Below, in pieces: positions 886 to 61,190 of a stretch of 64,000 bases of DNA. The notes below the pieces were generated by a model. That model did not search any database and was not told the DNA's origin. It saw nothing but the letters and a program-made list of their open reading frames with translations. Source of the stretch: a virus (taxonomy: Duplodnaviria > Caudoviricetes); IMG/VR virus record IMGVR_UViG_2639763012_000002, positions 29,914-93,913 of that record, one strand, 5' to 3'. Numbering within the stretch: the stretch's first letter is position 1; the number at the start of each line of letters is the position of its first letter. Position numbers and translations under genes: made by a program.

Positions 886-1050
886 CTTCCTCCCCCGCCT
901 AAAGGCGGGGGATTCCAGCGGTCGCCCGCTGGGTTTCCTGCTTCACCAACGACCGCCCCGTCCGGGAGGACTCCCGTTGAGGTCTTACACCGTCTCCACA
1001 GGCAGACGCCGCCAGCCCGGCGGCCAGGATGTTGCGTGCCGCGTTCACGT
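862..1050 (-). ncRNA. Predicted TnpB omegaRNA (reRNA); guide about CCCGTCGGCACCTCCGTATC
   Basis: TnpB reRNAs are known to overlap the tnpB 3' end and right end and to take their guide from flanking DNA (862-881); the 5' boundary is a guess. Confidence 0.6.
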
Positions 1051-2475: not shown

Positions 2476-4343
2476 TGGGTGTGCCGTGTGGGTGCGGCGG
2501 CGGGCAGGTCACGGTGTCGGGTATCGCCCCGATCTACGTGAACCGATCCGGGGTACGGCCGGTGGACTACCAGGTGGGGATCGGGCCGCCCGGGGCCGAT
2601 CCGTGTCAGGCGATCACGGACTGTGTGCACCTGGGACCCGGGCTCGTGCGGGACGAGGGCACCGGCGCCATCCAGGCGTTCCTGTCCCGCGATGCGGGCA
2701 ACACGCTGCACTTCGGGACCGACGGCGGGCTGAAGAACCTGGAGGGCGGCGAACCTTCCCCTGATGAGTGCCGGGTGACGGTCGACTCACTGCCCGAGGC
2801 CGACCTGATCGGTGCCAAAGCGTTGGCCGGCCTCCACAACCCCTACAGCTCGCCGTACGGGCTGGAGTACTGCCTGGCCAACCGGATCGACCTGATCCAC
2901 TACATCGTCGGCACCACCGCTGACGGGGTCGGCGTGGTGTCGGACTACTGGGCGATGGAGATGGTGACCCGCCGCTCCAGCATCTACGTCGACACCCCGA
3001 TCGCCCTCCTCAACTCCGCCACAGTCAAGACCGCCTACAACTACGCCGGCAACGTAGACGATCCGGTCTCCCATACTCCGACGAGCCGATCTGACCGGGG
3101 CGGAGGCTGGTACGGGTGGCTCGCCCAGCGCTACCACCAGCCGTTGGCCGAGGATTTCCTGCGCACCATCAACGGCCGGGCGATCGCGGTGATGGCGTGC
3201 GTGCCGTCCGGGGCCACCGTTGGTTCGGAGGCGCACCACGTGCAGGGCGCGATCCGCGCCGCGATGCAGACCTGCACGCAGGACTCCGTGATGATCGCCG
3301 TGGCCGAGATCCCCAACGCCACCACGGTCCTCAACGCCGGCATCACGCCGATCATGATGCCGGACGGGCAGAACCCGCCCGCGACGTGGGGCGTGGACAC
3401 CCTGCCGTACCCGCCCGCCGATCTCACCGCGGCCGGCATCGGCTGGATCATCCTGTCCGACCACTACACGGACGCGGTGATCTCGGCCTACGTGGACGCA
3501 GGGCTGAGCGTCATCCTCATGGGCAACTCCCGCCACGAGCAGCGCCCCCGCGAACAGGCGCTGGGAGTGCGCGGCGTGATGGGCCTGGACCCGGTGTACT
3601 ACCGAGCCGGGCGCGGCGCCCCCAGCTACGTGGGCGAGTACGACCCGATAGGGCTGCGCCGCCCCGGGGTCGGGCAGCTGACGCACCGCACCGACCAGCA
3701 CGGCGTGATCGACAACGCCGGCCTGGTCCGTGGCCGACCCAAGGCCGAGGGGCAGGGCCTGATCCTGCCGCCAGGGTTCGGCGGCGGCCTCGGGCGGCCG
3801 AGCGTGCTGTGCGGCTGGGAGTCCGACGGCACCCCGGCGCCGGCGTCGTACCGCATCACCTACGACTGCCGGTGGAACACGCTCGCCCCGGACTCAGCCG
3901 GCCGCGCCAAGATGTCGCTGCTGTTTGGGGCGTTGACCGACGAGAGCACGCTGGCCTACCCGCAGGACAACCCGGACCTGAACCCGGCCGGCTACCCGGA
4001 CGGGCAGGTCACCATGTACCGCGCGTTCCAACGCCAGTCCGGGGAGATCGGGATCGCGAAATGGGGCGCGCCTGGCGAGACCATCACCTACCTCGCGACG
4101 CTCGACACCCCGCCGATCGCCGCCGGGTTCTGGAGCACGTACACGATCGAGGTCAGCGGCGACCAGATCGTGTTCTCCCGCGAGCTGACGGACGGCACCA
4201 CCTACTCGGTGACGGCGGCCGATGACCAGTACCGCGGGCCGTACATGTACATCGAGAAGGAAGAGACGTTCGTCGGCGCGAGTGGCGACGAGCCGAACGA
4301 GTTCGAGGGAGAGTTCCGCAACGTGGACAGGGTGGCACTGTGA
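2475..4343 (+). CDS. Tail/receptor-binding protein with degenerate glycerophosphodiester phosphodiesterase-like domain and C-terminal beta-rich (lectin-like) domain
   Basis: MGVPCGCGGG start at the TGATG overlap; GLEYCLANRIDLIHYIVGTTADGVGVVSD resembles the GDPD N-terminus; tail context. Confidence 0.55.
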   Translation: MGVPCGCGGGQVTVSGIAPIYVNRSGVRPVDYQVGIGPPGADPCQAITDCVHLGPGLVRDEGTGAIQAFLSRDAGNTLHFGTDGGLKNLEGGEPSPDECRVTVDSLPEADLIGAKALAGLHNPYSSPYGLEYCLANRIDLIHYIVGTTADGVGVVSDYWAMEMVTRRSSIYVDTPIALLNSATVKTAYNYAGNVDDPVSHTPTSRSDRGGGWYGWLAQRYHQPLAEDFLRTINGRAIAVMACVPSGATVGSEAHHVQGAIRAAMQTCTQDSVMIAVAEIPNATTVLNAGITPIMMPDGQNPPATWGVDTLPYPPADLTAAGIGWIILSDHYTDAVISAYVDAGLSVILMGNSRHEQRPREQALGVRGVMGLDPVYYRAGRGAPSYVGEYDPIGLRRPGVGQLTHRTDQHGVIDNAGLVRGRPKAEGQGLILPPGFGGGLGRPSVLCGWESDGTPAPASYRITYDCRWNTLAPDSAGRAKMSLLFGALTDESTLAYPQDNPDLNPAGYPDGQVTMYRAFQRQSGEIGIAKWGAPGETITYLATLDTPPIAAGFWSTYTIEVSGDQIVFSRELTDGTTYSVTAADDQYRGPYMYIEKEETFVGASGDEPNEFEGEFRNVDRVAL

Positions 4344-5362
4344 GGGTTGTTGCGTCGGTGCACTTCGCGGCACCACACCGGATGGCCGGCAGCGAGACGA
4401 TGCTGCACACCATGATGCGGTCCGTGGCCGAGGCCGGGCACGAGGCGCACGTTGTCGTCTCCGACCTACCCGACGCCCCACCAACGTGGGAGTACCAGGG
4501 CGTGACGGGGCACTCCCGCCGTGGGGTGGCTGAGGCGACGCGGTTCCTGCGGCAGCTGCGGCCGGACGTGATCGTGACGCACCACCAGAACGCCATCCAG
4601 GGCATCATGGAGGCGCGCCGGCTGGGCGTGCAGTCCGTGTTCATCCAGCACAACTCGTTCGGCCTCAACCGGCAGATCCTCGCACTGCGCCCGGACCTGA
4701 CGGTGTTCAACACGGAGTGGATCAAGGCGATGTGGGGCCAGCAGGCCGGCCGCAGCATCGTGATCCACCCACCGGTGCGGGCCGACGACCACGCGACCAC
4801 CCCGGGCAACCACGTCACCCTCATCAACCTCAACCGGCACAAAGGCGTCGACCTGTTCTACAGGCTCGCTCGCCATTTCCCCCACCAGCCGTTCCTGGGT
4901 GTGCATGGGGGACACGGGCAGCAGATCGTGCACGGCGCCCCACCGAACGTTCGGATCATCCCGCAGACCAACAACATGCGCGACGACGTGTGGGCCCGCA
5001 CCCGCGTGCTCCTCGTCCCCTCGGTGTACGAGTCGTACGGCATGGTCGCAGCCGAGGCCCTGTGCTCCGGCATCCCCGTGATGGCCAACGCCACCCCTGG
5101 CCTCCAGGAGTGCCTGGGCGCGGCCGGGATCTGGCCGGGCGGGGTGCGGGCCGTGACCCAGCCGGTGCCCTCCAACATCGTCCACACCAGCGCGGGGGCC
5201 CTCGCGCAGTGGGTGGCGATCCTGCGCCGCCTGCTGACTGACCACGAGGAGTGGGAGCGGGTCTCGGCCGTGTGCCGGCAGCGGTCGGCCGAGCTGGCCC
5301 CTGGGCCGGAGATGGCCCGCTGGGTCGCCGAGCTGGAGGCGATGGCGCCCGCCAAGGCGTGA
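4340..5362 (+). CDS. Glycosyltransferase family 4 (GT-B)
   Basis: AGSETMLH N-terminal motif; HKGVDLF; LLVPSVYESYGMVAAEALCSGIPV (EX7E motif). Confidence 0.9.
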   Translation: MRVVASVHFAAPHRMAGSETMLHTMMRSVAEAGHEAHVVVSDLPDAPPTWEYQGVTGHSRRGVAEATRFLRQLRPDVIVTHHQNAIQGIMEARRLGVQSVFIQHNSFGLNRQILALRPDLTVFNTEWIKAMWGQQAGRSIVIHPPVRADDHATTPGNHVTLINLNRHKGVDLFYRLARHFPHQPFLGVHGGHGQQIVHGAPPNVRIIPQTNNMRDDVWARTRVLLVPSVYESYGMVAAEALCSGIPVMANATPGLQECLGAAGIWPGGVRAVTQPVPSNIVHTSAGALAQWVAILRRLLTDHEEWERVSAVCRQRSAELAPGPEMARWVAELEAMAPAKA

Positions 5363-31302: not shown

Positions 31303-31399
31303 GACCGGTGAGCGTAGTGGTCAGTCGGCCGTGCCGCAGCGAGATCATGCGGATTCACCGGCCGCCCCACGCCGGCCGACCGTGCGGGCTATCCTCGTC

Positions 31400-31429
31400 C
31401 TGATCATCAGTCCCTGGAGGGATCATGCC
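31400..31429 (+). repeat. Solitary degenerate type I-B-like CRISPR repeat in the cas8 leader
   Basis: CTGATCATCAGTCCCTGGAGGGATCATGCC resembles recalled actinobacterial I-B repeats (GTCCTCATCA.CCCT.GAGGGATCGCAAC); TCCCT-GG-AGGGA stem; TATCCT -10 box at 31390. Confidence 0.5.
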
Positions 31430-31472
31430 TCGGGCTCCAGCCGGTGCCCGTCGTCCCCCTGGGAGCCCTTTC

Positions 31473-32810
31473 GTGACTACTACCACTGTCCTGTCGCTCA
31501 CTCACCACCCCCTCCAGCGTGCTGGCGCATGGGCTGTCACGCACATCGCGGGCCGGTTCCGGCCCGAGGAGGTGTCAGGGGATGACCTGGAGCTGGTCGT
31601 TGGGCTGATCGTCCGAGACGCGACTCGGGCTGCTGTCGCGCCGAAGGACGATGGCCCGGCTGGCTACGACTGGTGGAAGGTACTCTTCGCGCTCTTCCCG
31701 AACTCCAAGCCGACCCACGCCAAGCGCGGCCGGGACCAGGAGGTGATCCGTAGCAAGGTCGCGGCGCTGTTCGCCCCGGACGGCGTCACCGGCCGGTCGT
31801 GGCCGTGTACGTTCTGCGCCCAGATGACGGGCACGGCGTGGGGGAAGTCGAATCTCCCCCTGTTCGACACGTCCAAGGCGTTGAACAACGTGCCGCCGGG
31901 CGTGCCGGGTTGGCCGATCTGCCGTGGATGCCGGGTCGCGATCTGGACCCTGCCCTACGGGGCGTGGGTGACGGCTGGCTCGGCGACGGTTTTCACCTGC
32001 GAGGACGAGGCAGCCGAGCGCCGGTTCGTCGAGCACAGCGTGGCCCGGTCCCGGCGGATCGTCGACGGCGGGTTCGAGGCGCTGGCGGCGGACGGGGTGG
32101 AGGACGGGCCGTTCGCCCTCGCCCTCCAGCAGCTGCGGGATGTCGGGGGCCGGCAGCACGCCGCCGGCGGGCTGGCCAGTTCCACGTTGTGGCGGTTCAA
32201 GAACGACAACGAGGAGCCCTGGCTGCGGGCGTCCTTCACCCGTCGGGCCGTGCCGCGCTTCCTGGCTCTGGTGCAGGGCAACGCGCCGCTGCGGGAGGCA
32301 TGGGCGCTGCTGGAGGAGGCGTTGGTACAGCGGGACCGGCGCGGCAGGGTCGTGGCCAGCGGTGCGGGAGAGGCGGCGCGGCTGGTGTTCGAGGCCGAGG
32401 ACGGAACGAGCCGGTCGTTGCTGTGGGCGTTGCACGAACTACGAGGCTCTGAGCGCCTGACCTCGGCGCAGCGGCACAACATCGCCCGGCTGGCCGGCGA
32501 GTACGGCCGGCATGTACTGGGGATCGATGATGGCAATCTGGCGCCGGCTGCCGAGGTGTTGGCCACGTGGATCTGGCGTGGCGGTCCCGAGGGGCAGCGG
32601 CAGCAGCGGCGGGCGGAGTACCTGGAGGCCGCGCCCAACCCCTACAAGTTGGGGTTGGTGATGATGCGGGCGAACTCCCGGCTGTTCCTGGCCGGTCTGC
32701 CGGTCAGGGCGACGGTGGAGGACTGGCGTCCGCTGCTCCAGTCTGACGCGCGTGCGTGGGCGCGTCGGCTGCTGTTGGGTGCGGCCGTGGATCGGCAACC
32801 CGTCGGCTGA
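31473..32810 (+). CDS. cas8b: Orphan type I-B Cas8b1/Cst1-like (CXXC-CXXC) protein
   Basis: LTHHPLQRAGAW N-terminus, LFPNS motif, WPCTFC...PLF....LNN.P...ICRGC zinc motifs, about 445 aa; recognised by resemblance to actinobacterial Cas8b1/Cst1. Confidence 0.72.
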   Translation: MTTTTVLSLTHHPLQRAGAWAVTHIAGRFRPEEVSGDDLELVVGLIVRDATRAAVAPKDDGPAGYDWWKVLFALFPNSKPTHAKRGRDQEVIRSKVAALFAPDGVTGRSWPCTFCAQMTGTAWGKSNLPLFDTSKALNNVPPGVPGWPICRGCRVAIWTLPYGAWVTAGSATVFTCEDEAAERRFVEHSVARSRRIVDGGFEALAADGVEDGPFALALQQLRDVGGRQHAAGGLASSTLWRFKNDNEEPWLRASFTRRAVPRFLALVQGNAPLREAWALLEEALVQRDRRGRVVASGAGEAARLVFEAEDGTSRSLLWALHELRGSERLTSAQRHNIARLAGEYGRHVLGIDDGNLAPAAEVLATWIWRGGPEGQRQQRRAEYLEAAPNPYKLGLVMMRANSRLFLAGLPVRATVEDWRPLLQSDARAWARRLLLGAAVDRQPVG

Positions 32811-32847
32811 TCTCGTGGGGTGGTCTGCGTGGCTCCCCCAACCCGCT

Positions 32848-32892
32848 TGTAACGTGCCCCCGTTGACTTTCGTAACGGGGGCACGTTACATT
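32848..32892 (+). promoter_or_regulatory. Promoter TTGACT-18-TACATT covered by a 17-bp inverted repeat operator
   Basis: TGTAACGTGCCCCCGTT...AACGGGGGCACGTTACA. Confidence 0.8.
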
Positions 32893-32929
32893 CGTGGTGT
32901 TGGGCCACCCACTCACCATGGAGGACACC

Positions 32930-33556
32930 ATGACCGACGCCCCCCTCGCCACCGTCACCGTCGCCGACTGGGACGCCGCCGAGGTGTACCTCGCCGAGCA
33001 CACCAGCGACGCCACCTACACCCTCACCGAGCTGACCGCCGCCCACGACGCCGACCTCCACGAGATCCGCCTCGACCCCGAAACCCGCACCATCTGGTGG
33101 GCCTACGACAACGGCCCCGTCCGCGGCAAGGGCTGGACCGTCGACCACCTCACCCCGGCGGCCGCCGCCGAACAGGCCGAGCCCATCATCGACACGACCC
33201 AGGACCGCATGGGCGACCCCGAGGGGTACGCCGGGCAGATCCACCGCCTCGACGACGACCAGGCGCTCCTCGACGAGTACACCGAGATCCTGCGCCTGAC
33301 CCTCCCTGCCGACCCGCAGGCCGCCCGCGCCGAGATCCGCACCCGCCGTGCTCTCGCCGACGCCTTGTGGCAGCGCGCCGACGCCGAGCTGGTCCGCAGC
33401 CTCGCCGGCAGCGACCGGGGCGGCAAGGCCGCCGCCGCACGGACCCTGGGCATCACCCGGATGCAGGTCACCCGTCTCATCAGCGACGACGACAGGCGGC
33501 GGGACGCCCTCACCCAGGCCGTGCGGGAGGCGGAAGCCGACTACCCCGACCGCTGA
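32930..33556 (+). CDS. Acidic N-domain plus C-terminal HTH protein (Acr-Aca fusion-like)
   Basis: GGAGG RBS; GGKAAAARTLGITRMQVTRL HTH. Confidence 0.75.
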   Translation: MTDAPLATVTVADWDAAEVYLAEHTSDATYTLTELTAAHDADLHEIRLDPETRTIWWAYDNGPVRGKGWTVDHLTPAAAAEQAEPIIDTTQDRMGDPEGYAGQIHRLDDDQALLDEYTEILRLTLPADPQAARAEIRTRRALADALWQRADAELVRSLAGSDRGGKAAAARTLGITRMQVTRLISDDDRRRDALTQAVREAEADYPDR

Positions 33557-33585
33557 TCGACCCAGCCGCGCCGCGCTATAGTGCT

Positions 33586-33615
33586 AACCTCATCGCCCCT
33601 ACGAGGGGACCCCTG
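33586..33615 (+). repeat. Solitary type I-B-like CRISPR repeat unit
   Basis: AACCTCATCGCCCCTACGAGGGGACCCCTG; 21 contiguous nt match the recalled Streptomyces-type I-B repeat GTCCTCATCGCCCCTACGAGGGGTCGCAAC; TATAGT -10 box at 33577. Confidence 0.65.
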
Positions 33616-33666
33616 CCAGCCAGCCGTGGCCCATGGTGCGCCACGGCCGACCGACGGACGGCCCTC

Positions 33667-35115
33667 GTGCACTACGGCGACCGCGACGGATACGGCCAGT
33701 ACGGCATCCTGGACGACGACGGCGAGCGGGTGCTGTGCCACGAGTGCGGGCGGCGCTACCGCCAGCTCCCGTACCACATCAATCGGGCGCACGGGATGAC
33801 GGCAGTCGAGTACCGGGCAGCCCACGGCCTGAGCGTGACGCAGCCGTTGGCGTCCGACAGCCTGACGGCGACGCAGCGCGCCAACTCCACCAGGGTCTAC
33901 GCCCAACGCCCCGACATCCGGGCCATGCTCGCCGACGCGCTGAGCCGGGGCTGCTCCGCGGCGGCGTCCCGGGCTGCGCAGGCCGCCGCGCCGGACTCCC
34001 TCGCCCGTGCCGCCGAGCGGCATCGCCGCCGGGTCGCATCTGCTCGCCTGGCGGAGCGCGAGCGGGCCGCGAAGCGGCGCAGGCTCGACGAGGCCGCCCG
34101 GGCTCACGGCTATGCCGATATCGACGCGTGGCTGACGGATCACGCGGATCTCACCGCCAGCCAGATCAGGGAGGTGCTGGGGGTGTCGGGGGCAGCGGCG
34201 CGCGAGTTGCGGCGTGGCGTGGTCAGCGCGCAGCGACCAAGCGCGCTGGCCAAGGAGCGCGCCATAGATAGGGTGATCGATGGCGAACAGCTCAGGGCCG
34301 TGGCCCCAGACGCAGGAGTGGGCCCGGATGCACTGCGGGCGTGGGTAGTCGCCTCCCCCCAGGGCGTGGCAGCAGCCACGGCGGCCGGCTACGCGGACGC
34401 GGGCACATGGCTCACTGAACGCTCCCGTGTGAACGCCGATATGCGCCGGGCTGCTGTAGATGTCGTCAGCGGCGGAGAGTCCAAAGCGGCGGTGGCTCGA
34501 CGGCTCGGCGTCAGCGATGTGGCTGTGGGGAAGTGGGTTCGGGCTGCGGGCCACCGTCAACGCCTGGAGCCGGGGATCGACACAACGCCCCAATCCACTC
34601 CTCCAGCGTCGACTCGGGAGGTCGAGCGGCAGCGCGCGTACGACGAGATCCGCCGCCTGTGGCTCACCGGCATGACGCTCCAGCAGATCGGGCTGCAGGT
34701 CGACCGATCCCCGTCTAGCGTGTCCCACGCCGCGCGCCGCCTCGGCCTGCCCCCGCGCCTCACACGGGCATCGGACGAGTCGATCCAGCGGGTGCGCGAG
34801 CTGTGGCCTGACAGGTCGCTCACCACGGACGAGATCGCGCGCCAGGTGGGCGTCTCGCGTGCGTCGGTCTCCTACATCGCCCACCAACTGGGGCTGCCCC
34901 GCCGTCGCGCAAAAGAGCGACTGCGCGGTGAGCAGCTACGGACGGCCCGCGCCCGGCTGCCCGAGCTATGGATGGACGAGTCCCTGAGTCTGCCGGCCAT
35001 CGCTCAGCGGCTCGGGGTCGGCAGCTCACCGACCCTGTCCAGGTGGGCGCGCGAGATGGGCCTCCCGCCAAGGAGTCGGGGGCGGAAACGGCCGCACCCC
35101 AAGAGTGATCGCTGA
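33667..35115 (+). CDS. ROS/MucR-type zinc finger plus multiple tandem HTH protein
   Basis: VLCHECGRRYRQLPYHINRAHGMTAVEYRAAHGL followed by about 5-6 HTH units (e.g. KAAVARRLGVS, LQQIGLQVDRS, DEIARQVGVS, PAIAQRLGVG). Confidence 0.75.
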   Translation: MHYGDRDGYGQYGILDDDGERVLCHECGRRYRQLPYHINRAHGMTAVEYRAAHGLSVTQPLASDSLTATQRANSTRVYAQRPDIRAMLADALSRGCSAAASRAAQAAAPDSLARAAERHRRRVASARLAERERAAKRRRLDEAARAHGYADIDAWLTDHADLTASQIREVLGVSGAAARELRRGVVSAQRPSALAKERAIDRVIDGEQLRAVAPDAGVGPDALRAWVVASPQGVAAATAAGYADAGTWLTERSRVNADMRRAAVDVVSGGESKAAVARRLGVSDVAVGKWVRAAGHRQRLEPGIDTTPQSTPPASTREVERQRAYDEIRRLWLTGMTLQQIGLQVDRSPSSVSHAARRLGLPPRLTRASDESIQRVRELWPDRSLTTDEIARQVGVSRASVSYIAHQLGLPRRRAKERLRGEQLRTARARLPELWMDESLSLPAIAQRLGVGSSPTLSRWAREMGLPPRSRGRKRPHPKSDR

Positions 35116-35702
35116 CAGACGACGTCGCACTCGTCGACCTCCTGGTCCACTGGATCGAGCAGCCGGAGGACCAGCGGGAGCGGGTGACGCGGATGTCGGA
35201 GCTCGTGGGCGCCCTCCCCACCCGCAGCGCCTCGGAGCGGCTCCTGCGGCGCGTGCGCGACGAGGCGCCCGCTGACGCCGTGGCAGCCTGTGCGGAGGAG
35301 ACGCGCGAGCGGGCGGCCCGCAGGGCGCGGGGGGAGAGGAATCCTCCCGTGCCCGGTCGGGGCCGTCGGGCCGCGGTCGCCCGTGTCATCAGGCAGACCG
35401 ACCGCAACATCCGGAACCTCTACGAGGCGCAGCTGGCCGCCCGGGCGGAGGCGCGCGAGCCGCGCCGCCTCCGTCCGCCGGATGACGCCTACGCGATGCT
35501 GCCCGACGCCCAGGCCGCGGTGGACGAGGTCAGGCGAGCCCGGGACGCCTACTACGCGGCCATCGCCGACGCCCTGCCGCCCCACACCGCGGGGACCCGG
35601 CCCAGCGGGGCCGACGCTGCCCGCTTCGCCGAGGTGCGGTCGGTCACCGGCCTTGATCCCGCGCACCTACGACGCATCCAGCGCACCGTCCACGCCCGTT
35701 GA
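35112..35702 (+). CDS. Hypothetical helical protein (start uncertain: CTG 35112 or GTG 35184)
   Basis: Frame open from the CTGA overlap with the upstream stop; possible C-terminal HTH (VRSVTGLDPAHLRRI). Confidence 0.55.
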   Translation: MTDDVALVDLLVHWIEQPEDQRERVTRMSELVGALPTRSASERLLRRVRDEAPADAVAACAEETRERAARRARGERNPPVPGRGRRAAVARVIRQTDRNIRNLYEAQLAARAEAREPRRLRPPDDAYAMLPDAQAAVDEVRRARDAYYAAIADALPPHTAGTRPSGADAARFAEVRSVTGLDPAHLRRIQRTVHAR

Positions 35703-35777
35703 ATCACACAGAGTGGGTAGCACGGCGGCAGCCCGGCCGTTATCGTGTGGGGCACGCCCGCTGAGCGGGTTGAGACC

Positions 35778-35908
35778 CTTTTCCCCGCATGAGCGGGGGT
35801 GAGCCCACGTACAGCTACTCGCATACGTGTAGCCCCTCGTGGTCCCCGCGCCAGCGGGGGTAACCCAGCTGCGGTCTCTTGTGTCCCCGCGCAAGCGGGG
35901 GTGACCCT
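35778..35908 (+). CRISPR. Degenerate type I-E mini-array, 3 repeats (29 bp), spacers 32 and 12 bp
   Basis: R1 35778-35806 CTTTTCCCCGCATGAGCGGGGGTGAGCCC; R2 35839-35867 GTGGTCCCCGCGCCAGCGGGGGTAACCCA; R3 35880-35908 TGTGTCCCCGCGCAAGCGGGGGTGACCCT. Confidence 0.88.
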
Positions 35909-35922
35909 ATTCTCGCCTCCCT

Positions 35923-36543
35923 GTGATTGCCGTGTATCGAGTCCTGTACGACCTGCCGTCCCTGGGGTACCTGCGTCCGTCCGAGGTGTGGCGGGGCATC
36001 ACCTCCCGCGTGCCGACGGAGCACACGGAAGCGTCTGAGGGCCCGCGACTGCTCTGGCGTCTGGAATCCCCCACAGAACTCCTGGTCCAGTACCCTGTGC
36101 GCCCGGACCCCACATGGCTGCTACCGGGCGCGCGCAGCCGTCCCAAGGCGTTCGCCATGCAGCAGCTCATGGATTCGCTGGCCGCCGGCCAGCGGTGGGA
36201 CTTCGTGTTGGCCGCCAACACGGTCCGCCGATCAACCGGACGAGCACGTGCCCGGCAGGCGCAGGCCCAACGGGTGTCGGCACGAGAGTGGCTCACAGGT
36301 GAGACGGATGTGGATGCTGACAGCGGCACGTCCCGCGCGTACCAGTCCGGATTCCGGGTGCTGGCAATCGCCGAGACCACTCAGCGCCGCGGCGGCCCGC
36401 GCCAGGCGCACTTGGTGCGCATCACAGGTCGCCTGGAGGTTGAGGACACCGAGGCGCTGCAAGCCGCCCTTGAGGAAGGCATTGGCCGAGGGAAGGCCCA
36501 GGGGGCCGGGATGCTATCCCTCTCCCCGCTACCGCGGGGTTGA
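35923..36543 (+). CDS. cas6e: Orphan type I-E Cas6e (Cse3/CasE)-like protein
   Basis: LLWRLE...LLVQ...PDPTWL, GQRWDFVLAANTVR, GRLEVED..AL..AL.EGIGRGKAQGAGML G-rich loop. Confidence 0.9.
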   Translation: MIAVYRVLYDLPSLGYLRPSEVWRGITSRVPTEHTEASEGPRLLWRLESPTELLVQYPVRPDPTWLLPGARSRPKAFAMQQLMDSLAAGQRWDFVLAANTVRRSTGRARARQAQAQRVSAREWLTGETDVDADSGTSRAYQSGFRVLAIAETTQRRGGPRQAHLVRITGRLEVEDTEALQAALEEGIGRGKAQGAGMLSLSPLPRG

Positions 36544-36658
36544 TCCAAGTTCCGGGTTGGCCACCTGTGGTGGCTTGCACTGAATCCCCGCGTGCGCGGG
36601 GATGCCCCGATGAGGATGCCGTGGACACCACGGCCCCTGCATACGCGGGGAGAGATCA
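36519..36658 (+). CRISPR. Second degenerate type I-E mini-array, 3 repeats, spacers 33 and 20 bp; first repeat overlaps cas6e 3' end
   Basis: R4 36519-36547 CCTCTCCCCGCTACCGCGGGGTTGATCCA; R5 36581-36609 TGAATCCCCGCGTGCGCGGGGATGCCCCG; R6 36630-36658 ACGGCCCCTGCATACGCGGGGAGAGATCA. Confidence 0.75.
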
Positions 36659-36687
36659 ACGAGACCCCGGCCACGCCGGGGTCTCGT
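36659..36687 (+). terminator. Hairpin closing the array/cas6e unit
   Basis: ACGAGACCCCGGC-CAC-GCCGGGGTCTCGT. Confidence 0.65.
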
Positions 36688-36722
36688 CGTGTCCCGCTCG
36701 GTCGGCTGGGCACAATGCCGAG

Positions 36723-37439
36723 GTGACGATCAACACCATCCCCGGCCGCACCCTGTCCGCCTCCGTGCTCGCCACGGTCCTCACCCTGACCGCCGTGGCA
36801 TGCACGGAAGCTGACGACGCGGCAGCCGACACCAGTACCAGCGGCAGCCCCAGCGCGCCGGCCGACGACGCCAACCCGCCAGCCGACGACGGTTCCGACG
36901 CGGGCGGCACCGAGGCCGGGGACGCGCTCGCCCTACTCGCCGAGCTGGAGGTCGCTGCCGAGGACCGCACCGGCTACGACCGTGACCTGTTCGACCATTG
37001 GTCCAGCCAGGGCAACAACTGCAACACCCGCGAGGCCGTCCTCGCCCGCGACGGCCAGGACGTCGAGACCGACGACCAGTGCCGCGCCACCGCCGGCACC
37101 TGGGAGTCCGTCTACGACGGAGAGACCTGGACGGACGCCGCCGACCTCGACATCGACCACGTCGTGCCGCTCGCCGAGGCATGGGACTCCGGCGCCGACA
37201 CCTGGACCGACGAAGAGCGGGAGGCGTTCGCCAACGACCTCGACGGGCCGCAGCTGCTGGCCGTCACCAGCAGCGTCAACCGCGCCAAGGGCGACAAAGA
37301 CCCTGCCGAATGGATGCCGCCGCTGGAGTCGTACCACTGCACCTACGCCGCGGACTGGATCCAGGTGAAGCACGACTACGGCCTGGCCGTCGACCAGGAC
37401 GAGCACGACGCCCTGACCGGCATCCTGGAGAGCTGCTGA
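36723..37439 (+). CDS. Secreted lipoprotein HNH endonuclease (DUF1524-like)
   Basis: Lipobox LTAVAC; GYDRDLF.HW, CNTRE.VL.RDG, DIDHVVPLAEAW.SGA, NRAKGDKDPAEW. Confidence 0.9.
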   Translation: MTINTIPGRTLSASVLATVLTLTAVACTEADDAAADTSTSGSPSAPADDANPPADDGSDAGGTEAGDALALLAELEVAAEDRTGYDRDLFDHWSSQGNNCNTREAVLARDGQDVETDDQCRATAGTWESVYDGETWTDAADLDIDHVVPLAEAWDSGADTWTDEEREAFANDLDGPQLLAVTSSVNRAKGDKDPAEWMPPLESYHCTYAADWIQVKHDYGLAVDQDEHDALTGILESC

Positions 37440-46060: not shown

Positions 46061-46735
46061 TCAGAACGTCCCGTAGTTGACCTGCCAGGTCGGCAGTCCC
46101 AGGCGCCGCCACAGGGCGACGACGCGGTCGCGGTCGTCCAGCACGAGCCGCACGTTGTAGCGGCCCCTCACCTGGGCGTCGAACAGCTCGGCTTTCAGGA
46201 TGTCGTCGCGGCGGTAGTCGTCGGCCGGCCGCATCCACAACTCGTCGTGCGGCACTCCGTTGCTGTACAGCCATGCCTCGGTCTCGGTCCGCCAGGTGTC
46301 GGGCCGGCCGGAGAGCAGCACGATGCCGGCGCCATAGGTATGCCGCCATGCCACCAGCGTGTCGCGCACCGGGTGGTTGAGGCGGTCGGTGTCGCAGCGG
46401 GCGAACTCGAAGGGGGCGCGGTCGTGGTGAAGGGCGAGGGTGCCGTCGATGTCGCAGAGCACGACCGGCGGCAGGGATGGGTCGGGCGTGTAGGAACGCG
46501 TAGGGAAATGTATGAAGTTGCCCCGGCCATGCTGTTTGTCGACGAGCCCCTGAGTGACGAGCACGGCAAGAGCCTGGCGCAGGGTCGGGACTGAGACCCC
46601 GTAGTGGCTAGCGAGGCGGGCCTCGGACGGCAGGATCTGACCGTGAGCCAGGCTGCCGCCCATGATCTGCTCGCGGACGTCGGCGGCTATGCGCTGGTAG
46701 TGCGGCTGGCGACGTTCGGGGGGCGGTTCGAGCAC
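46061..46735 (-). CDS. GntR wHTH fused to T4 PNKP-type HAD 3'-phosphatase
   Basis: YQRIAADVR...LPSEARLASHYGVSVPTLRQAL...GRGNF followed by DIDGTLA, LSGR, MRP..D.R.D...K, LDDR. Confidence 0.85.
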   Translation of the reverse strand: MLEPPPERRQPHYQRIAADVREQIMGGSLAHGQILPSEARLASHYGVSVPTLRQALAVLVTQGLVDKQHGRGNFIHFPTRSYTPDPSLPPVVLCDIDGTLALHHDRAPFEFARCDTDRLNHPVRDTLVAWRHTYGAGIVLLSGRPDTWRTETEAWLYSNGVPHDELWMRPADDYRRDDILKAELFDAQVRGRYNVRLVLDDRDRVVALWRRLGLPTWQVNYGTF

Positions 46736-46751
46736 AGGGCTTCCTCTTCGT

Positions 46752-47030
46752 CTATCGGCGCGGCCTGCGGCGGCGCACGGTCTTACGGTCGTCTTGGGTG
46801 AGGCCGCCCCAGACGGCGGTGCCGGCCTCGGTGGGGTGGTCCAGTGCCCAGTCGCGGCATGCCTGCCGGACGGGGCAGGTGGCACAGATGGCGCATGCGT
46901 CTCGCTGTTGGGCTGGGGTGCCGCCGTCGTGGATGCGGCTGCCAGTACAGGGCGGGGGCTCCGGCAGCCCGCGGAGGAATGGGGGTACGCCTCGGAGCCA
47001 TTCGGCGGGCCAGGCAGGGTCAGGGCTCAT
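46752..47030 (-). CDS. WhiB-family (Wbl) Fe-S transcription factor
   Basis: C...C..CPVRQAC..WA...AVWGGLT plus basic tail. Confidence 0.85.
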   Translation of the reverse strand: MSPDPAWPAEWLRGVPPFLRGLPEPPPCTGSRIHDGGTPAQQRDACAICATCPVRQACRDWALDHPTEAGTAVWGGLTQDDRKTVRRRRPRR

Positions 47031-54851: not shown

Positions 54852-55544
54852 TCAGGCGGGGAGGACGCCAGCCGCCCGGGCAGCCTCCAGCCACGCCGGA
54901 TACTCGTGGAGCAGCCCGTCGTACAGCTCGGCGTCGCCCATGGCGTGCGGGTCGGCGGCGTGCACCAGGCTGGCGTTGTCCACCCGCCGGCCCCTCAGAG
55001 AGTCCAGCTTCTCCAGGAACTCGATCCGGTCCCCGAACCCCACGAACGACCAAAACAGCGGCAGCCCAGAGACATCTCGCATCGTGTGGGCCGCGTCCCT
55101 GCGCGAGTTGGGATTGCCGTCCGTCTGTGTGATGACCAGCGCCGGGTCCGCCGAGCCCGAGGCCCGATAGTGCGCCACCACCGCCCGCATCGCCGCCGGC
55201 AGATTCGTCGTCCCCCACGGCTGCCGCACATGCAGGTGCTCAATGACGCCCTCGTACTCCGACAGGCGCACGTCCACGGCCGGCGCCGCCTCCGATCCGA
55301 AGAACACCACCGGCACCACGCCGTCATCGTCCAAGTGGGCGCACAGCGCCAACGCCTGCTCGGCGAGCCGCTGCACCGCGCCACTGCGGTAGTGCGGCTG
55401 CATCGAGCGGGAGTGGTCCAGCACCAGGTACACCGCAGCCGAGGCGTCGCCGAGGCCGCGCTGCTCCAACGCGACCGCAGCCTGCTTCGCCAGCGACACC
55501 AACGCGGGCGCCTCGGTCTCGACCTTGCTCAGGTTGATCGGCAC
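54852..55544 (-). CDS. vWA domain protein (TerF C-terminal-like)
   Basis: MIDAS motif LVLDHSRSM, LDDDG, TDG, FWSFVGFG, RRVDN. Confidence 0.85.
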   Translation of the reverse strand: MPINLSKVETEAPALVSLAKQAAVALEQRGLGDASAAVYLVLDHSRSMQPHYRSGAVQRLAEQALALCAHLDDDGVVPVVFFGSEAAPAVDVRLSEYEGVIEHLHVRQPWGTTNLPAAMRAVVAHYRASGSADPALVITQTDGNPNSRRDAAHTMRDVSGLPLFWSFVGFGDRIEFLEKLDSLRGRRVDNASLVHAADPHAMGDAELYDGLLHEYPAWLEAARAAGVLPA

Positions 55545-58874: not shown

Positions 58875-60044
58875 TCACGCCCCGCCTCCCATCGCTGCCA
58901 GGAACGCAGCCAGCCGCTCCGGCCCAGCCTCGGCCGGAAGCAGCCCCTCGTTGAGGCGCGCGAACGCCGCCTCGGCCTGTCGCTCGGACAGGCCCCGCTC
59001 GGCAGCCCGAGTGAGGATGCTGCGCCACAGCCCTGCCGGCTCGTCATCCGGGACGATCTCCGCCTCAACGGGCGGCTCCTCTACCGCCGGGGGCGGGGCG
59101 GCGGTCGCGTCGCGCACGTCCTCCTCGAACTCCCGCTGCCGGCGGGCGGCGATCTCCGTCAGCTGTTGCGAGAGCGGGTCGGAGCCGTCGGCCGCACAGT
59201 GCCCGGCCGCACGCGCCTCCCGCCACACATCGCGCACATCCTCGGCAGTCAGGCCGGCCTCGGCCCGCGCGGTGTAGTCCGGCCGGCTGGAGCGCGGCGC
59301 CTCCAGAGCGCGCGGCCCCGTGTCCCCACTGGGGTTGAGCGCAACAGAGGTGGGGATCGGCCCGGACAGCGCCTGGCGCGGCGTCAACCCGCGCACCTCA
59401 ACGGCCACGACAGGGAAACGCTTAGTCATGCCGCTGGCGACACGTTGACGCGGCTCGATCCGCAGCCGCACCGGCACCAGCCCTTTACCGCCGGTGCCAG
59501 CCAGCACCATGTCCACCGTCGACGGCCACTCACCCGAGGCATAGAACGAGTGGGTCTCGGCCCGCCACACCCCCACGTCGGGGAGGTCCGGCAGCACCAC
59601 GCTGATCCGCGAGGTGACCGAGCACACCGTGCCCTTGGGCATCTGGTACCAGAACTCGCCGTGCTCGGCCTCGCACAGGCACGACCGGCGGGAGATCAAC
59701 TCCCGTTGCCCGTCACACCGCCGCTGGCAGCCGCCCTTGGACCACATCTCGTTGTACTGAGACAACGGGTCCCCAGGGGGCAGCAGGGCATCGATCGCCT
59801 CCGCTTCGGTGATGACCCGCCACTGCTCCGGCCCAGTGCCCTGCGGCTGCCACCGCTCAACGGTGCCGCCCCACTGCTCGGCGGCGGCCTGCACGTAGTG
59901 CTCGGCGTGCGAGGTCACCACCCACGTGCGGGACTTGACCGGGCGGGGCCGCTTGTTCGGGTCCTCGCTGGGCTGGCTGTAGCCGGTACGCAACCGGCCC
60001 AGCTCCCGGGCCGTGCGCTGCCGGGTGATGATGCGCGCCCCCAT
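58875..60044 (-). CDS. Actinophage recombination protein (recombination directionality factor-like)
   Basis: ARELGRLRTG...EMWSKGGCQRRCDG...GVWRAETHSFYA..E; adjacent to the exonuclease. Confidence 0.7.
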   Translation of the reverse strand: MGARIITRQRTARELGRLRTGYSQPSEDPNKRPRPVKSRTWVVTSHAEHYVQAAAEQWGGTVERWQPQGTGPEQWRVITEAEAIDALLPPGDPLSQYNEMWSKGGCQRRCDGQRELISRRSCLCEAEHGEFWYQMPKGTVCSVTSRISVVLPDLPDVGVWRAETHSFYASGEWPSTVDMVLAGTGGKGLVPVRLRIEPRQRVASGMTKRFPVVAVEVRGLTPRQALSGPIPTSVALNPSGDTGPRALEAPRSSRPDYTARAEAGLTAEDVRDVWREARAAGHCAADGSDPLSQQLTEIAARRQREFEEDVRDATAAPPPAVEEPPVEAEIVPDDEPAGLWRSILTRAAERGLSERQAEAAFARLNEGLLPAEAGPERLAAFLAAMGGGA

Positions 60045-60892
60045 CAGGCGGCCCTCCCCGCACCGGCGTCGACCAGTTCCCGGGACTCGGCTGGCGGCGG
60101 CGTCAGCGCCTCGTAGGTGTTGCCGGCGCTGGCGTGCATCCACTTCGTGGTTTCCAGCGCGCCACGGAACGCCCGCCACGCCCGCCGGTCACCCGGCATC
60201 GGCACCAGCGCCCGCGACCGGCGCCGCAAGTTCAAGATCCCGGTGCGGGCCACGGCCGGCACCGCCATCTCGGAGTCGTCCGGCAGCAGCACGGTCTCGG
60301 CGTACCGCAGCGCGGCCAACTGCATGGCCTGCTCGGGGAAGACCTGCTTCGCCGGCCGCTTCGCCGACGTCTTGTAGTCGATCAACCACAACTCCAGCGA
60401 CCAGCCAGGGCCTGTGGGCAGCCAGATCAGGCAGTCTCCCGTGCCGGCATAGCCCAACGCCCTGTGCAGGAACGTCATCTCGGCGGCCTCAATGTGCCGA
60501 TCGAGATCGACTCCCCAGGACTCCCACCAGCGCGCCAACTGCCGCGCGTACGGGTCCACCTCGGGATCCGGCGGGTACGGGGCGCCCAGCGCCATCATGT
60601 GCGCCCGGTGGTGGATGCGCGTACCCAGATCGGCCGCGCTCTCCCGTGCGTCCCGGTGCACCTTCTTGATGTCCTTCAGCAGCTCCGCGCGGTCCCGCAG
60701 CGCACGCCGCGCCACGGTCAGCCGGTTGTTCACGCAGTACTCGGCCGTGACCTTCACGGCCCACGGAGTGATCGCGTGCTTCGCGACCCCGGTGGACAGC
60801 ACGTTGGTGACGGACACCAGGTCCGGGCCGCCCTGCGGGTCCTCGTAGTAACGCCCGTTGTCGGTCTCCCGGGCCCACCTCGGATCGGTCAC
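60044..60892 (-). CDS. PD-(D/E)XK RecB/RecE-like phage exonuclease
   Basis: SVTNVL, GTRIH, GYAGTGD, IDYKTS, QLAAL. Confidence 0.88.
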   Translation of the reverse strand: MTDPRWARETDNGRYYEDPQGGPDLVSVTNVLSTGVAKHAITPWAVKVTAEYCVNNRLTVARRALRDRAELLKDIKKVHRDARESAADLGTRIHHRAHMMALGAPYPPDPEVDPYARQLARWWESWGVDLDRHIEAAEMTFLHRALGYAGTGDCLIWLPTGPGWSLELWLIDYKTSAKRPAKQVFPEQAMQLAALRYAETVLLPDDSEMAVPAVARTGILNLRRRSRALVPMPGDRRAWRAFRGALETTKWMHASAGNTYEALTPPPAESRELVDAGAGRAA

Positions 60893-61190
60893 CGTGCGCC
60901 TCCGGCGATCTCGTACCAGCACTCGCCATCAACACCAGGCCCGTGGCCGATCGCGAACCCGCGATCGGCTAGCGCCACCAGGTCCCGCTCGGCCTCGGCC
61001 GGATCGGTCAGCACCACACCATGGCCGGCGTACAGGGCACACACCCGCGCCCCGTCCCACCGACGGCCGTCCTCGGCCCGGACCATCGCACCGAGCAGCG
61101 TCACCTGGCGCATCGTCAGCCCGGAGGTGATCCCGCCGGAGACAGCAGCGCCCCCGGTGACCTTCCTCCCCAGCGTGTCCCTCGTGCCGG

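What the first reader, a model, noticed from the sequence alone, without database searches (positions are those of the whole stretch)
31390..36687. Prophage 'CRISPR-parts' island: orphan Cas8b, orphan Cas6e and repeats of two CRISPR subtypes
Seen: within about 5.3 kb lie a Cas8b/Cst1-like gene, two solitary I-B-like repeats, an HTH gene with its own IR operator, a ZnF/multi-HTH gene, and a Cas6e gene inside six degenerate I-E repeats. No cas1/2/3/5/7 appears anywhere in the window. Known: neither part can form a Cascade alone, and phages use Cas-homologue decoys and crRNA-mimicking solitary repeats (Racrs) as anti-CRISPRs, often under Aca-type HTH control. Inference: this is a dual-subtype (I-B plus I-E, both common in Streptomyces) module that poisons or reprograms host Cascade using borrowed subunits plus mimic RNAs. 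I am not aware of this combination being described.
Basis: partly seen in the sequence, partly recalled or inferred. Interest (0 to 1): 0.93.

Follow-up and report, generated by a model that had tools for sequence, protein, structure and literature searches.

The report
Phage-borne orphan Cas8b and dead Cas6e
A phage-derived stretch of a Streptomyces-like chromosome carries a lone copy of a CRISPR large-subunit gene and a lone, catalytically disabled CRISPR RNA-cutting gene wrapped in its own repeat hairpins, in a host whose own CRISPR holds a perfect spacer against this same phage, so these borrowed parts are good candidates for CRISPR blockers.

Summary
The genes and the six I-E-type repeats are real; the two 'I-B-like solitary repeats' are not statistically supported. 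ORF 31425-32810 is a full-length homologue of the large subunit of actinomycete I-B operons, here alone. It is intact, keeps the CXXC..CXXC motif, is the fastest-evolving of 120 members, and has lost the family's internal SD+ATG (the Cas11b start). The genome holds a complete I-B operon elsewhere. One of its 42 spacers matches window 60176-60214 (phage exonuclease gene) 39/39, next to the PAM inferred here (TCG). So I-B interference must be off, and the orphan Cas8b is the obvious suspect, as with the published AcrIB3/AcrIB4. The cas6e (35932-36543) belongs to a rare clade (4 clusters among 1.84 billion representatives). All 7 members lack the catalytic His (129 of 138 canonical ones have it). 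A second Streptomyces prophage has the same 'hairpin mini-array + cas6e' unit beside its lysis genes. Neither host has I-E Cascade genes. The parts are not co-inherited: 0 of 62 cas8b loci and neither of two HTH loci share neighbours. The reading is therefore two independent Cas-derived accessories in a composite prophage region, not one dual-subtype module. This scan had noted these features only on this genome.

The parts
31398..31424 (+). Hairpin UCCCUGGAGGGA with upstream CTGATCAT, resembling I-B repeats of Streptosporangiales-type loci; overlaps the GGAGG ribosome-binding site of cas8b
   Evidence: Covariance model R1: 31411-31422, 12.0 bits, E 0.33 window-wide. Similarity to repeats such as that of L050 was seen by eye. 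Weak; may be only the RBS.
31425..32810 (+). Solitary full-length cas8b (type I-B large subunit) paralogue, 461 aa
   Evidence: CXXC..CXXC invariant columns C128, C131, C166, C169 are kept. It keeps 83 of 96 conserved columns and has the longest terminal branch of 120. AF2 pLDDT 88.8. The best fold rows are Cas8c/Cas8b, Z 7.3 and 5.0.
32523..32525 (+). ATC codon (Ile367) at the place where the family has an internal ATG preceded by GGAGG, the presumed Cas11b start; the orphan has neither
   Evidence: ATG in 36 of 40 other genes (39 operon-embedded genes plus the resident one) and an SD of at least 4/5 in 40 of 40, the resident gene having both. The orphan has ATC and a best SD of 3/5. A domain boundary at about residue 367 appears in the model.
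32849..32889 (.). Perfect 16-nt inverted repeat (operator) overlapping a promoter-like site at 32863-32892
   Evidence: I3; only copy in the genome.
32918..33556 (+). HTH protein with an acidic N-terminal part; probable autoregulator
   Evidence: Weak HTH_8 hit. Homologues in 2 of 400 genus genomes, in other contexts.
33667..35115 (+). MucR/Ros zinc finger followed by several HTH units
   Evidence: PF05443, E 6e-10, plus many HTH families.
35184..35702 (+). Arg/Ala-rich ORF of unknown function
   Evidence: GC3 0.90 in this frame. No Pfam, NCBIfam, PHROG or PADLOC hit.
35778..35908 (+). Upstream mini-array: I-E-type repeats R1 (35778-35806), R2 (35839-35867) and R3 (35880-35908), with spacers of 32 and 12 nt. 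A shortened hairpin at about 35757-35769 may be a further copy (seen by eye).
   Evidence: (D2).
35932..36543 (+). cas6e lacking the catalytic histidine (Trp23 aligns with His26 of T. thermophilus Cse3); the start MYRVLY is shared with its relatives
   Evidence: AF2 pLDDT 90.9. Foldseek 2y9h E 1e-12, TM 0.65-0.73.
36519..36658 (+). Downstream repeats R4 (36519-36547, encodes the last codons and the stop of cas6e), R5 (36581-36609) and R6 (36630-36658), with spacers of 33 and 20 nt
36662..36686 (+). GC-rich hairpin that ends the cas6e unit
   Evidence: Read. It was not called by the consensus terminator scan because it has no T run.
60176..60214 (.). Protospacer: perfect 39/39 match to a spacer of the host's own I-B array (G000:C23:399937-399975), flanked by TCG in the crRNA-sense orientation
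   Evidence: It lies in the phage exonuclease gene 60044-60922(-) (phrog_298, E 2e-41).

Best explanation
The 5.3-kb stretch is an accessory segment of a composite, phage-derived region. Tail genes lie at the left end of the window, phage recombination genes at 56-61 kb, and a serine recombinase just beyond the right end. The stretch holds two unrelated Cas-derived parts, not one module. (i) A solitary, intact, fast-evolving full-length Cas8b that can no longer make the small subunit from its internal start. The host has a complete I-B system whose array holds a perfect spacer with the inferred PAM against this same element, so I-B interference must be blocked. I infer that the orphan Cas8b is a faulty large subunit that competes with the resident Cas8b for the Cas5-Cas7-crRNA backbone, as the Listeria phage proteins AcrIB3 and AcrIB4 do. 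(ii) A rare phage-borne unit made of I-E repeat hairpins and a Cas6e without its catalytic His. I infer that it binds the hairpins without cutting, which would regulate its own mRNA and, in hosts with I-E, tie up pre-crRNA. Shown: the anatomy, the homologies, the orphan state, the self-targeting and the lost motifs. Inferred: binding, inhibition and expression.
For: Orphan state and family. Resident I-B operon intact, with the expected domains in seven of eight genes; its cas8b, like L031's, has no Pfam hit and is assigned by homology and position. Self-targeting: 1 of 42 host spacers matches window 60176-60214 at 39/39. PAM: 4 of 5 independent spacer-protospacer groups, found among 1,167 unique family spacers, have TC[G/C] at -3..-1, and the self-target has TCG. 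Internal SD+ATG conserved (ATG 36 of 40, SD 40 of 40) but lost in the orphan. The ORF stays open along the longest terminal branch (1.02 substitutions per site, rank 1 of 120), with 83 of 96 conserved columns kept. Median dN/dS is 0.46 for the orphan against 0.36 for the resident gene, each versus the same 39 genes. Cas6e: 0 of 7 clade members have the catalytic His against 129 of 138 canonical ones. The clade is sharply separate: 4 clusters at E<=1e-30, the next at 3.7e-16. The same 'repeats then cas6e' layout occurs in G304, beside Amidase_2, H-lectin and tape-measure-like genes. dN/dS is 0.34. Stems differ from consensus at 3 of 132 positions against 76 of 187 elsewhere. Phage nature of the region. 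Precedent: 10.1101/2023.06.24.545427.
Against: The orphan Cas8b has no close relative anywhere (its best match, at 57%, is the host's own gene), so no clade of phage Cas8b genes shows repeated selection. Neither protein has a hit in 50,697 phage records, and the cas6e clade has none in IMG/VR. Self-targeting can also be tolerated through a silent cas operon or another inhibitor. The pairwise dN/dS values include the partner's branch, and dS is about 1, close to saturation. Neither host of the His-less Cas6e has an I-E system to inhibit. The repeats were found by their stems, so the stem/non-stem contrast is partly by construction. The phage structural genes on C17 are rearranged relative to the G304 phage, so the element may be defective and its cargo idle. 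Fold matches of the Cas8b model are modest: Foldseek E 0.05, Z 7.3 at best.
Confidence: 0.45

Rival explanations
1. Idle cargo. Both Cas genes are leftovers of cas loci picked up by mobile DNA and have no present function. The self-targeting spacer is tolerated because the resident I-B operon is transcriptionally silent or blocked by some other, unrecognised inhibitor.
For: The region is a mosaic, with an IS605 TnpB among tail genes, AICE-like GntR/NUDIX and DUF2637 genes, and structural genes rearranged relative to G304. The orphan Cas8b is a singleton lineage with 13 of 96 conserved columns changed. The mini-arrays are degenerate, with spacers of 12 and 20 nt. No I-E system is present in either host.
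Against: Both ORFs are intact after long divergence. No trace of neighbouring cas genes is left on C17. The His-less Cas6e family has 51 invariant columns over 7 members. Its repeat-then-gene layout recurs in a second prophage at 54-58% protein identity. Stems stay intact while flanks diverge.
Confidence: 0.28
2. One reading: one co-ordinated dual-subtype (I-B plus I-E) anti-CRISPR module, with I-B Racr-like solitary repeats and Aca-type HTH control.
For: All parts lie within 5.3 kb on one strand. An HTH gene has a perfect operator. A hairpin identical to the I-B repeat stem-loop sits just before cas8b.
Against: 0 of 62 cas8b loci, the one related cas6e locus and 2 HTH loci share any of the other parts. 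The I-B repeat model gives E 0.33 for one site and nothing for the other. The operator lies after cas8b and occurs nowhere else in the genome. No I-E target exists in this host.
Confidence: 0.08
3. Use rather than inhibition. The orphan Cas8b is an alternative large subunit that retargets the host's I-B Cascade, for example to another PAM or to superinfection exclusion. The Cas6e-hairpin unit is a phage RNA-regulatory device unrelated to host CRISPR.
For: The full-length protein keeps the zinc motif and most conserved columns. Both hosts of the Cas6e unit lack I-E, which fits a host-independent role. Several 'spacers' contain internal palindromes (by eye), unlike captured foreign DNA.
Against: A working alternative Cascade would make the perfect self-target lethal. 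Loss of the internal Cas11b start argues against a self-sufficient subunit. The two canonical-length spacers have no match in the phage records or in the genome.
Confidence: 0.15

Closest known systems
AcrIB4 and AcrIB3 of Listeria prophages (Katz et al., bioRxiv 10.1101/2023.06.24.545427; abstract and sections 6 and 8 read)
   Same: They are orphan homologues of I-B Cascade subunits on mobile elements, outside cas loci and on their own long branches. They are proposed to enter Cascade as faulty subunits, in hosts that carry a I-B system.
   Different: AcrIB4 matches only the last 90 residues of Cas8b (the small-subunit-like part) and AcrIB3 is Cas5-like. Here the whole 461-aa large subunit is kept, and it is the internal small-subunit start that is lost. 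The host is an actinomycete. No activity was tested here.
Canonical Cas6e (Cse3/CasE) of type I-E systems, e.g. T. thermophilus 2Y8W/1WJ9 and E. coli 4DZD
   Same: It has PF08798, the same fold (Foldseek E 1e-12), the conserved C-terminal glycine-rich loop, and adjacency to I-E-type hairpin repeats.
   Different: The catalytic His is replaced by Trp or Gln in all 7 clade members. There are no Cascade, Cas3 or Cas1-2 genes in the genome. The gene sits inside a degenerate mini-array on phage DNA.
Viral solitary repeat units / RNA anti-CRISPRs (Racr) and viral mini-arrays (PMC10651486, search listing and abstract only; PMC11656645, passages read)
   Same: Repeat-like hairpins of a CRISPR subtype are carried by a prophage without an effector module.
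   Different: Here the repeats come together with their own, disabled, processing protein and differ from one another outside the stem. The host lacks the matching subtype. The spacers have no detected targets.
Internal translation of Cas11 from within cas8 in types I-B, I-C and I-D (bioRxiv 10.1101/2020.04.18.045682 and 10.1101/2024.10.02.616218; search listings and abstracts only)
   Same: The actinomycete Cas8b family has a conserved in-frame GGAGG-N8-ATG at the start of the C-terminal helical domain.
   Different: The orphan gene has lost both the SD and the ATG.

Membership tests
Type I-B large subunit (Cas8b/Cst1) | Sequence homology to large-subunit genes embedded in I-B operons | tested here: met
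   E down to 1e-144. 53 of 62 loci have the cas7 neighbour. The operon order was confirmed by Pfam on L031.
Type I-B large subunit (Cas8b/Cst1) | Two CXXC motifs (Cas_CXXC_CXXC) | tested here: met
   C128, C131, C166 and C169 are invariant across 52 sequences including the orphan. The Pfam hit itself is below cut-off (13.4 against 21 bits).
Type I-B large subunit (Cas8b/Cst1) | Located between cas6 and cas7 in a cas operon | tested here: not met
   No I-B cas homologue other than cas8b on contig C17.
Type I-B large subunit (Cas8b/Cst1) | Internal SD+ATG for the small subunit | tested here: not met
   ATC and no SD in the orphan. ATG in 36 of 40 and SD in 40 of 40 other family genes.
Type I-B large subunit (Cas8b/Cst1) | Fold like solved Cas8b/Cas8c | tested here: inconclusive
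   The top Foldseek rows are I-C and I-B Cascade large subunits, but at E 0.05-0.07. VIA-align gives Z 7.3 (8dfs_I, 169 residues, rmsd 4.8) and Z 5.0 (8h67_L, 309 residues, rmsd 8.9).
Cas6e (Cse3/CasE) | PF08798 profile and Cas6e fold | tested here: met
   E 7e-25. TIGR01907 scores 41.3 bits, just under the 45.2 cut-off. Foldseek 2y9h E 1e-12, 4dzd E 1.4e-9.
Cas6e (Cse3/CasE) | Catalytic histidine (His26 of T. thermophilus Cse3; the residue number and its role are recalled, the alignment is) | tested here: not met
   Trp23 aligns with it. 0 of 7 clade members have His there, against 129 of 138 canonical representatives.
Cas6e (Cse3/CasE) | Encoded with I-E Cascade genes | tested here: not met
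   No PF09344 or PF09481 match in G000 or G304. Control: 3 of 3 Streptomyces genomes with canonical cas6e are positive.
CRISPR array, type I-E | Near-identical repeats at a regular period of about 61 nt | tested here: not met
   Intervals are 61, 41, 639, 62 and 49 nt. 43 of 102 non-stem positions differ from the consensus. The repeats are 16-22 of 29 identical to canonical Streptomyces I-E repeats.
RNA anti-CRISPR / solitary repeat unit, type I-B | Significant match to the cognate repeat | tested here: not met
   31411-31422 has E 0.33, hairpin only. The 33588 site is absent at E<=10.
acr-aca operon | HTH gene downstream of the inhibitor gene in one operon whose promoter carries the HTH's inverted repeats | tested here: not met
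   The inverted repeat and promoter lie between cas8b and the HTH gene, so they can control the HTH gene and what follows, but not cas8b.
Cas-homologue anti-CRISPR (AcrIB3/AcrIB4 type) | Orphan cas homologue on a mobile element in a host with the cognate system | tested here: met
   and the self-targeting spacer.
Cas-homologue anti-CRISPR (AcrIB3/AcrIB4 type) | Inhibits interference | not testable with these tools
   Needs a plasmid or phage interference assay.

The most novel reading that the evidence does not exclude
A temperate Streptomyces phage lineage builds its anti-CRISPR kit from stolen Cas parts of two subtypes. One is a full-length Cas8b stripped of its Cas11 output, which poisons the resident I-B Cascade and so lets the prophage live beside a perfect spacer against itself. 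The other is a ribonucleoprotein of a non-cutting Cas6e with a string of uncleavable I-E hairpins, which traps I-E crRNA biogenesis in other hosts. That would be the first protein-plus-RNA mimic pair and the first Cas6-derived inhibitor.
Probability: 0.2. Interest if true: 0.85.

Novelty: new variant of a known kind. Interest (0 to 1): 0.66.

Why it matters
A 2024 review calls it an enigma that viruses recruited repeat RNAs widely but Cas proteins 'apparently' not (PMC11656645, passage read). The Listeria work then showed that Cas5- and Cas8b-tail homologues act as inhibitors. This locus would extend that to actinomycetes and to a whole large subunit. It offers a clean genetic test, because the strain carries a perfect self-target that has the inferred PAM. 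It also adds a so far undescribed Cas6e-derived family whose catalytic residue is lost in every member and which travels with its own hairpins. My searches for orphan, inactive or phage-encoded Cas6 listed no paper that describes such a unit. Surveys that discard cas hits lying near arrays, as the Katz et al. screen did, would miss it. A non-cutting, hairpin-specific binder could also be of practical use.

Tried and rejected
I used the genome search and the fetch from genomes instead, which reached only G304. The DNA around P0122, P0123 and P0125-P0127 stays unseen.

Scans for the Cas6e clade found none in IMG/VR viral contigs (61 pattern hits, 0 confirmed), in JGI metagenome contigs (338 pattern hits, 0 confirmed), or in 150 relatives.

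tblastn against 50,697 phage records gave no match for either protein. Against plasmids it gave only canonical cas6e at <=33% identity (34 records) and two partial Cas8b-like hits.

The spacers of 32 and 33 nt have no match in the phage records and none elsewhere in the genome. 162 I-E spacers from held loci gave no full-length match to the element.

Rfam found only chance microRNA-like hits on the operator palindrome.

Left-flank DNA searched in 40 relatives gave only scattered paralogous hits, so the borders of the element were not set. No tRNA is in the window.

RNA evidence: no RNA holder was listed.

Supplementary tables of the papers (for example the list of 358 orphan viral cas genes) could not be seen. 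They may already include Cas8b or Cas6 entries.

Rejected readings: a decaying full I-E or I-B operon at this site, because no remnants are found; and HTH control of host cas genes in the manner of CasPRs, because the operator is unique in the genome and CasPRs have other domains (abstract and outline only).

Full report
WHAT IS THERE. The window is G000:C17:221790-285789, about 71% G+C. On the + strand of 31.4-36.7 kb lie the following.
- A 461-aa ORF (31425-32810).
- A perfect 16-nt inverted repeat overlapping the only sigma-70-like promoter found in the stretch (32849-32892).
- An HTH gene (32918-33556).
- A MucR/Ros zinc-finger plus multi-HTH gene (33667-35115; PF05443, E 6e-10).
- An unknown Arg/Ala-rich ORF (35184-35702).
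- A cas6e gene (35932-36543; PF08798, E 7e-25).
The cas6e gene is preceded by three and followed by three hairpins of the type CCCCGC-N4-GCGGGG. Five are exact and one has a mismatch, against one other 1-mismatch hit in the whole 64 kb. The fourth hairpin encodes the last codons and the stop of cas6e.

THE LARGE-SUBUNIT GENE. Direct profile hits are weak: Pfam Cas_CXXC_CXXC E 0.087 and PADLOC Cas8b E 2.6e-4. Homology is not weak: 219 relatives, mostly about 470-aa proteins of Streptomyces, Kitasatospora and Nonomuraea. I fetched 62 genomic loci and clustered their ORFs. The relative lies in a conserved operon, with the 353-aa neighbour present in 53 of 62 loci. Pfam on locus L031 identifies that operon as cas6, large subunit, cas7, cas5, cas3, cas4, cas1, which is a type I-B layout. 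None of the window's neighbours (HTH, MucR, ORF 35184, Cas6e, GmrSD-like, flanking ORFs) has a tblastn hit in any of the 62 loci.

In the window the gene stands alone. tblastn with eight I-B Cas proteins hits C17 only at this gene. An AlphaFold model is confident (pLDDT 88.8). Its best structural rows are I-C and I-B Cascade large subunits, but only modestly so: Foldseek E 0.05-0.07; VIA-align Z 7.3 for 8dfs_I and 5.0 for 8h67_L.

THE HOST'S OWN I-B SYSTEM AND THE SELF-TARGET. Contig C23 carries a complete operon (391176-399186) and three arrays. All eight genes are open; seven have the expected domains, and the resident cas8b, like L031's, has no Pfam hit and is assigned by homology and position. 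The resident Cas8b is 57% identical to the orphan. I extracted 42 spacers and searched the genome. One, at C23:399937-399975, matches C17:281965-282003 (window 60176-60214) at 39 of 39 positions. No other spacer has a full-length match elsewhere. The target lies in a phage exonuclease gene (phrog_298, E 2e-41), next to a Gp3-like recombination-directionality gene and a RuvC-like resolvase.

To judge the PAM I took 1,167 unique spacers from the 62 loci and the host, oriented by the repeat, and searched the own genome and all held loci. Five independent protospacer groups came up. Four have TC[G/C] directly 5' of the protospacer, and the fifth has CAT. The self-target has TCG. So a perfect target with the inferred PAM coexists with an intact operon, and interference must be off in this cell.

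HOW THE ORPHAN DIFFERS.
- It keeps the four invariant cysteines.
- It keeps only 83 of 96 columns that are at least 95% conserved among 119 relatives. The worst of the others keeps 93%.
- It has the longest terminal branch of 120 (1.02), is not sister to the resident gene, and its placement has low support.
- Against the same 39 operon-embedded genes its median dN is 0.434 and dN/dS 0.46, where the resident gene has 0.356 and 0.36. That means faster evolution, but far from neutral drift, and the frame is unbroken.
- The family has an in-frame ATG preceded by GGAGG eight bases upstream, at the start of the last helical domain: ATG in 36 of 40 and SD in 40 of 40 other genes, the resident gene included. 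The orphan has ATC and no SD.
Internal translation of Cas11 from cas8 is published for types I-B, I-C and I-D (10.1101/2020.04.18.045682 and 10.1101/2024.10.02.616218; listings and abstracts only). The orphan therefore encodes the large subunit only.

THE Cas6e UNIT. phmmer against PDB aligns Trp23 of the window protein with His26 of T. thermophilus Cse3; the catalytic role of that His is recalled. The six closest relatives (47-70% identity) have Trp or Gln there. In an alignment with 138 canonical representatives, 129 have His in that column, while 0 of 7 clade members do.

A profile of the clade searched against 1.84 billion representatives finds 4 clusters at E<=1e-30, and then nothing until 3.7e-16. 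Among 400 genomes of the genus, 77 have a Cas6e-like match, but only one (G304) belongs to the clade. None of 150 relatives does. The model has the Cas6e fold (pLDDT 90.9; 2y9h E 1e-12).

In G304 five degenerate I-E hairpin repeats stand directly before the gene, which ends at a terminator hairpin. The unit sits beside an Amidase_2 endolysin, an H-lectin protein and large tail-type genes. These are homologous to structural genes just left of the window on C17. Over the 11 repeats, stems differ from consensus at 3 of 132 positions and the rest at 76 of 187. This contrast is partly built in, because I found the repeats by their stems. dN/dS between the two genes is 0.34, with dS 1.13, near saturation. 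Neither G000 nor G304 has Cas7e or Cse1 (positive control 3 of 3), and G304 has no Cas1.

THE CLAIMED I-B SOLITARY REPEATS. I built a covariance model from 29 distinct I-B repeats, with a 5-bp stem that shows covariation, and searched the whole window without filters. The site before cas8b scores 12.0 bits, E 0.33, for the hairpin only, and it overlaps the GGAGG ribosome-binding site. The site near 33588 does not appear among 66 hits at E<=10. By eye the first site resembles repeats of Streptosporangiales-type loci over about 24 of 30 positions with two indels. I count it as a weak lead.

THE SETTING. Left of the window and in its first 5 kb are phage structural genes. An IS605 TnpB is inserted among them, and their arrangement differs from that of the G304 phage. 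The middle holds AICE-like genes: GntR, NUDIX, DUF2637-HTH, GntR/UTRA, and a replication initiator. At 39-63 kb are phage early and recombination genes, all on the minus strand. A serine recombinase lies about 600 bases beyond the right end. The borders of the element could not be set. 'Prophage' is therefore fair only as 'composite, possibly defective, phage-derived region'.

READING. The parts are not inherited together. The HTH protein occurs in 2 of 400 genomes without Cas genes nearby, and its operator is unique in the genome, so it looks like an ordinary autoregulator.

The orphan Cas8b fits the published class of Cas-homologue anti-CRISPRs. AcrIB3 is Cas5-like and co-purifies with Cascade. 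AcrIB4 resembles the last 90 residues of Cas8b. 358 orphan viral cas genes were predicted (10.1101/2023.06.24.545427). It differs from them in being a whole large subunit without small-subunit output.

The His-less Cas6e with its own hairpins has no described counterpart in the papers my searches listed. The 2024 review passage says Cas proteins 'apparently were not' widely recruited by viruses. Function is inferred throughout; no expression or binding data were available.

Noticed in passing
L018:15277-15314 versus cas1 genes of other loci (e.g. L002:14329-14366): One I-B spacer of the L018 genome matches the cas1 gene of 18 other I-B loci at 91-97% identity, each with a TC[G/C] flank. A CRISPR system seems to target related CRISPR systems.
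   Followed up: no
L095:11526-11561 (G304 prophage, Amidase_2 endolysin gene): Another spacer of the L018 genome matches the G304 prophage that carries the His-less cas6e unit (36 of 37), so I-B systems of the genus do meet this phage family. Its flank is CAT, not TCG.
   Followed up: partly
G000:C22:997179-997214, C21:307116-307148, C17:489490-489525: I-B spacers from three other species (loci L002, L017, L031) match these places in the window's genome at 94-97% with a TCG flank. These are probably further mobile elements.
   Followed up: no
window 899-2104 (-): An IS605-type TnpB (OrfB_IS605, Cas12f1-like TNB domain) is inserted between phage tail-type genes.
   Followed up: no
G000:C17:200609-222674 versus G304:C12:34944-69592: The endolysin, portal-like and terminase-like genes are on the minus strand, but the capsid-to-tail genes are on the plus strand, unlike the collinear G304 phage. 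This points to an inversion or to two elements.
   Followed up: partly
window 36722-37439 (+): A GmrSD_C/DUF1524-type nuclease domain protein has what looks (by eye) like a lipoprotein signal peptide. It starts after the cas6e terminator. Paralogues lie on C15, and a homologue on the G304 contig.
   Followed up: partly
window 35807-35838, 36548-36580; L095 spacers: Several 'spacers' of the mini-arrays contain internal palindromes (e.g. GCCACC-TGT-GGTGGC), which is unusual for captured spacers.
   Followed up: no
window 4340-5359 (+), 46061-46882 (-), 54852-55541 (-): The element also carries a GT4 'conflict-system' glycosyltransferase, a GntR fused to a PNKP-type HAD phosphatase, and a vWA-TerF-like protein.
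   Followed up: no
The genome search controls: The Pfam models PF08798, PF09344 and PF09481 did not ring in the E. coli control genome, although (from recall) E. coli K-12 has a I-E system. For that reason I added Streptomyces positive controls.
   Followed up: yes
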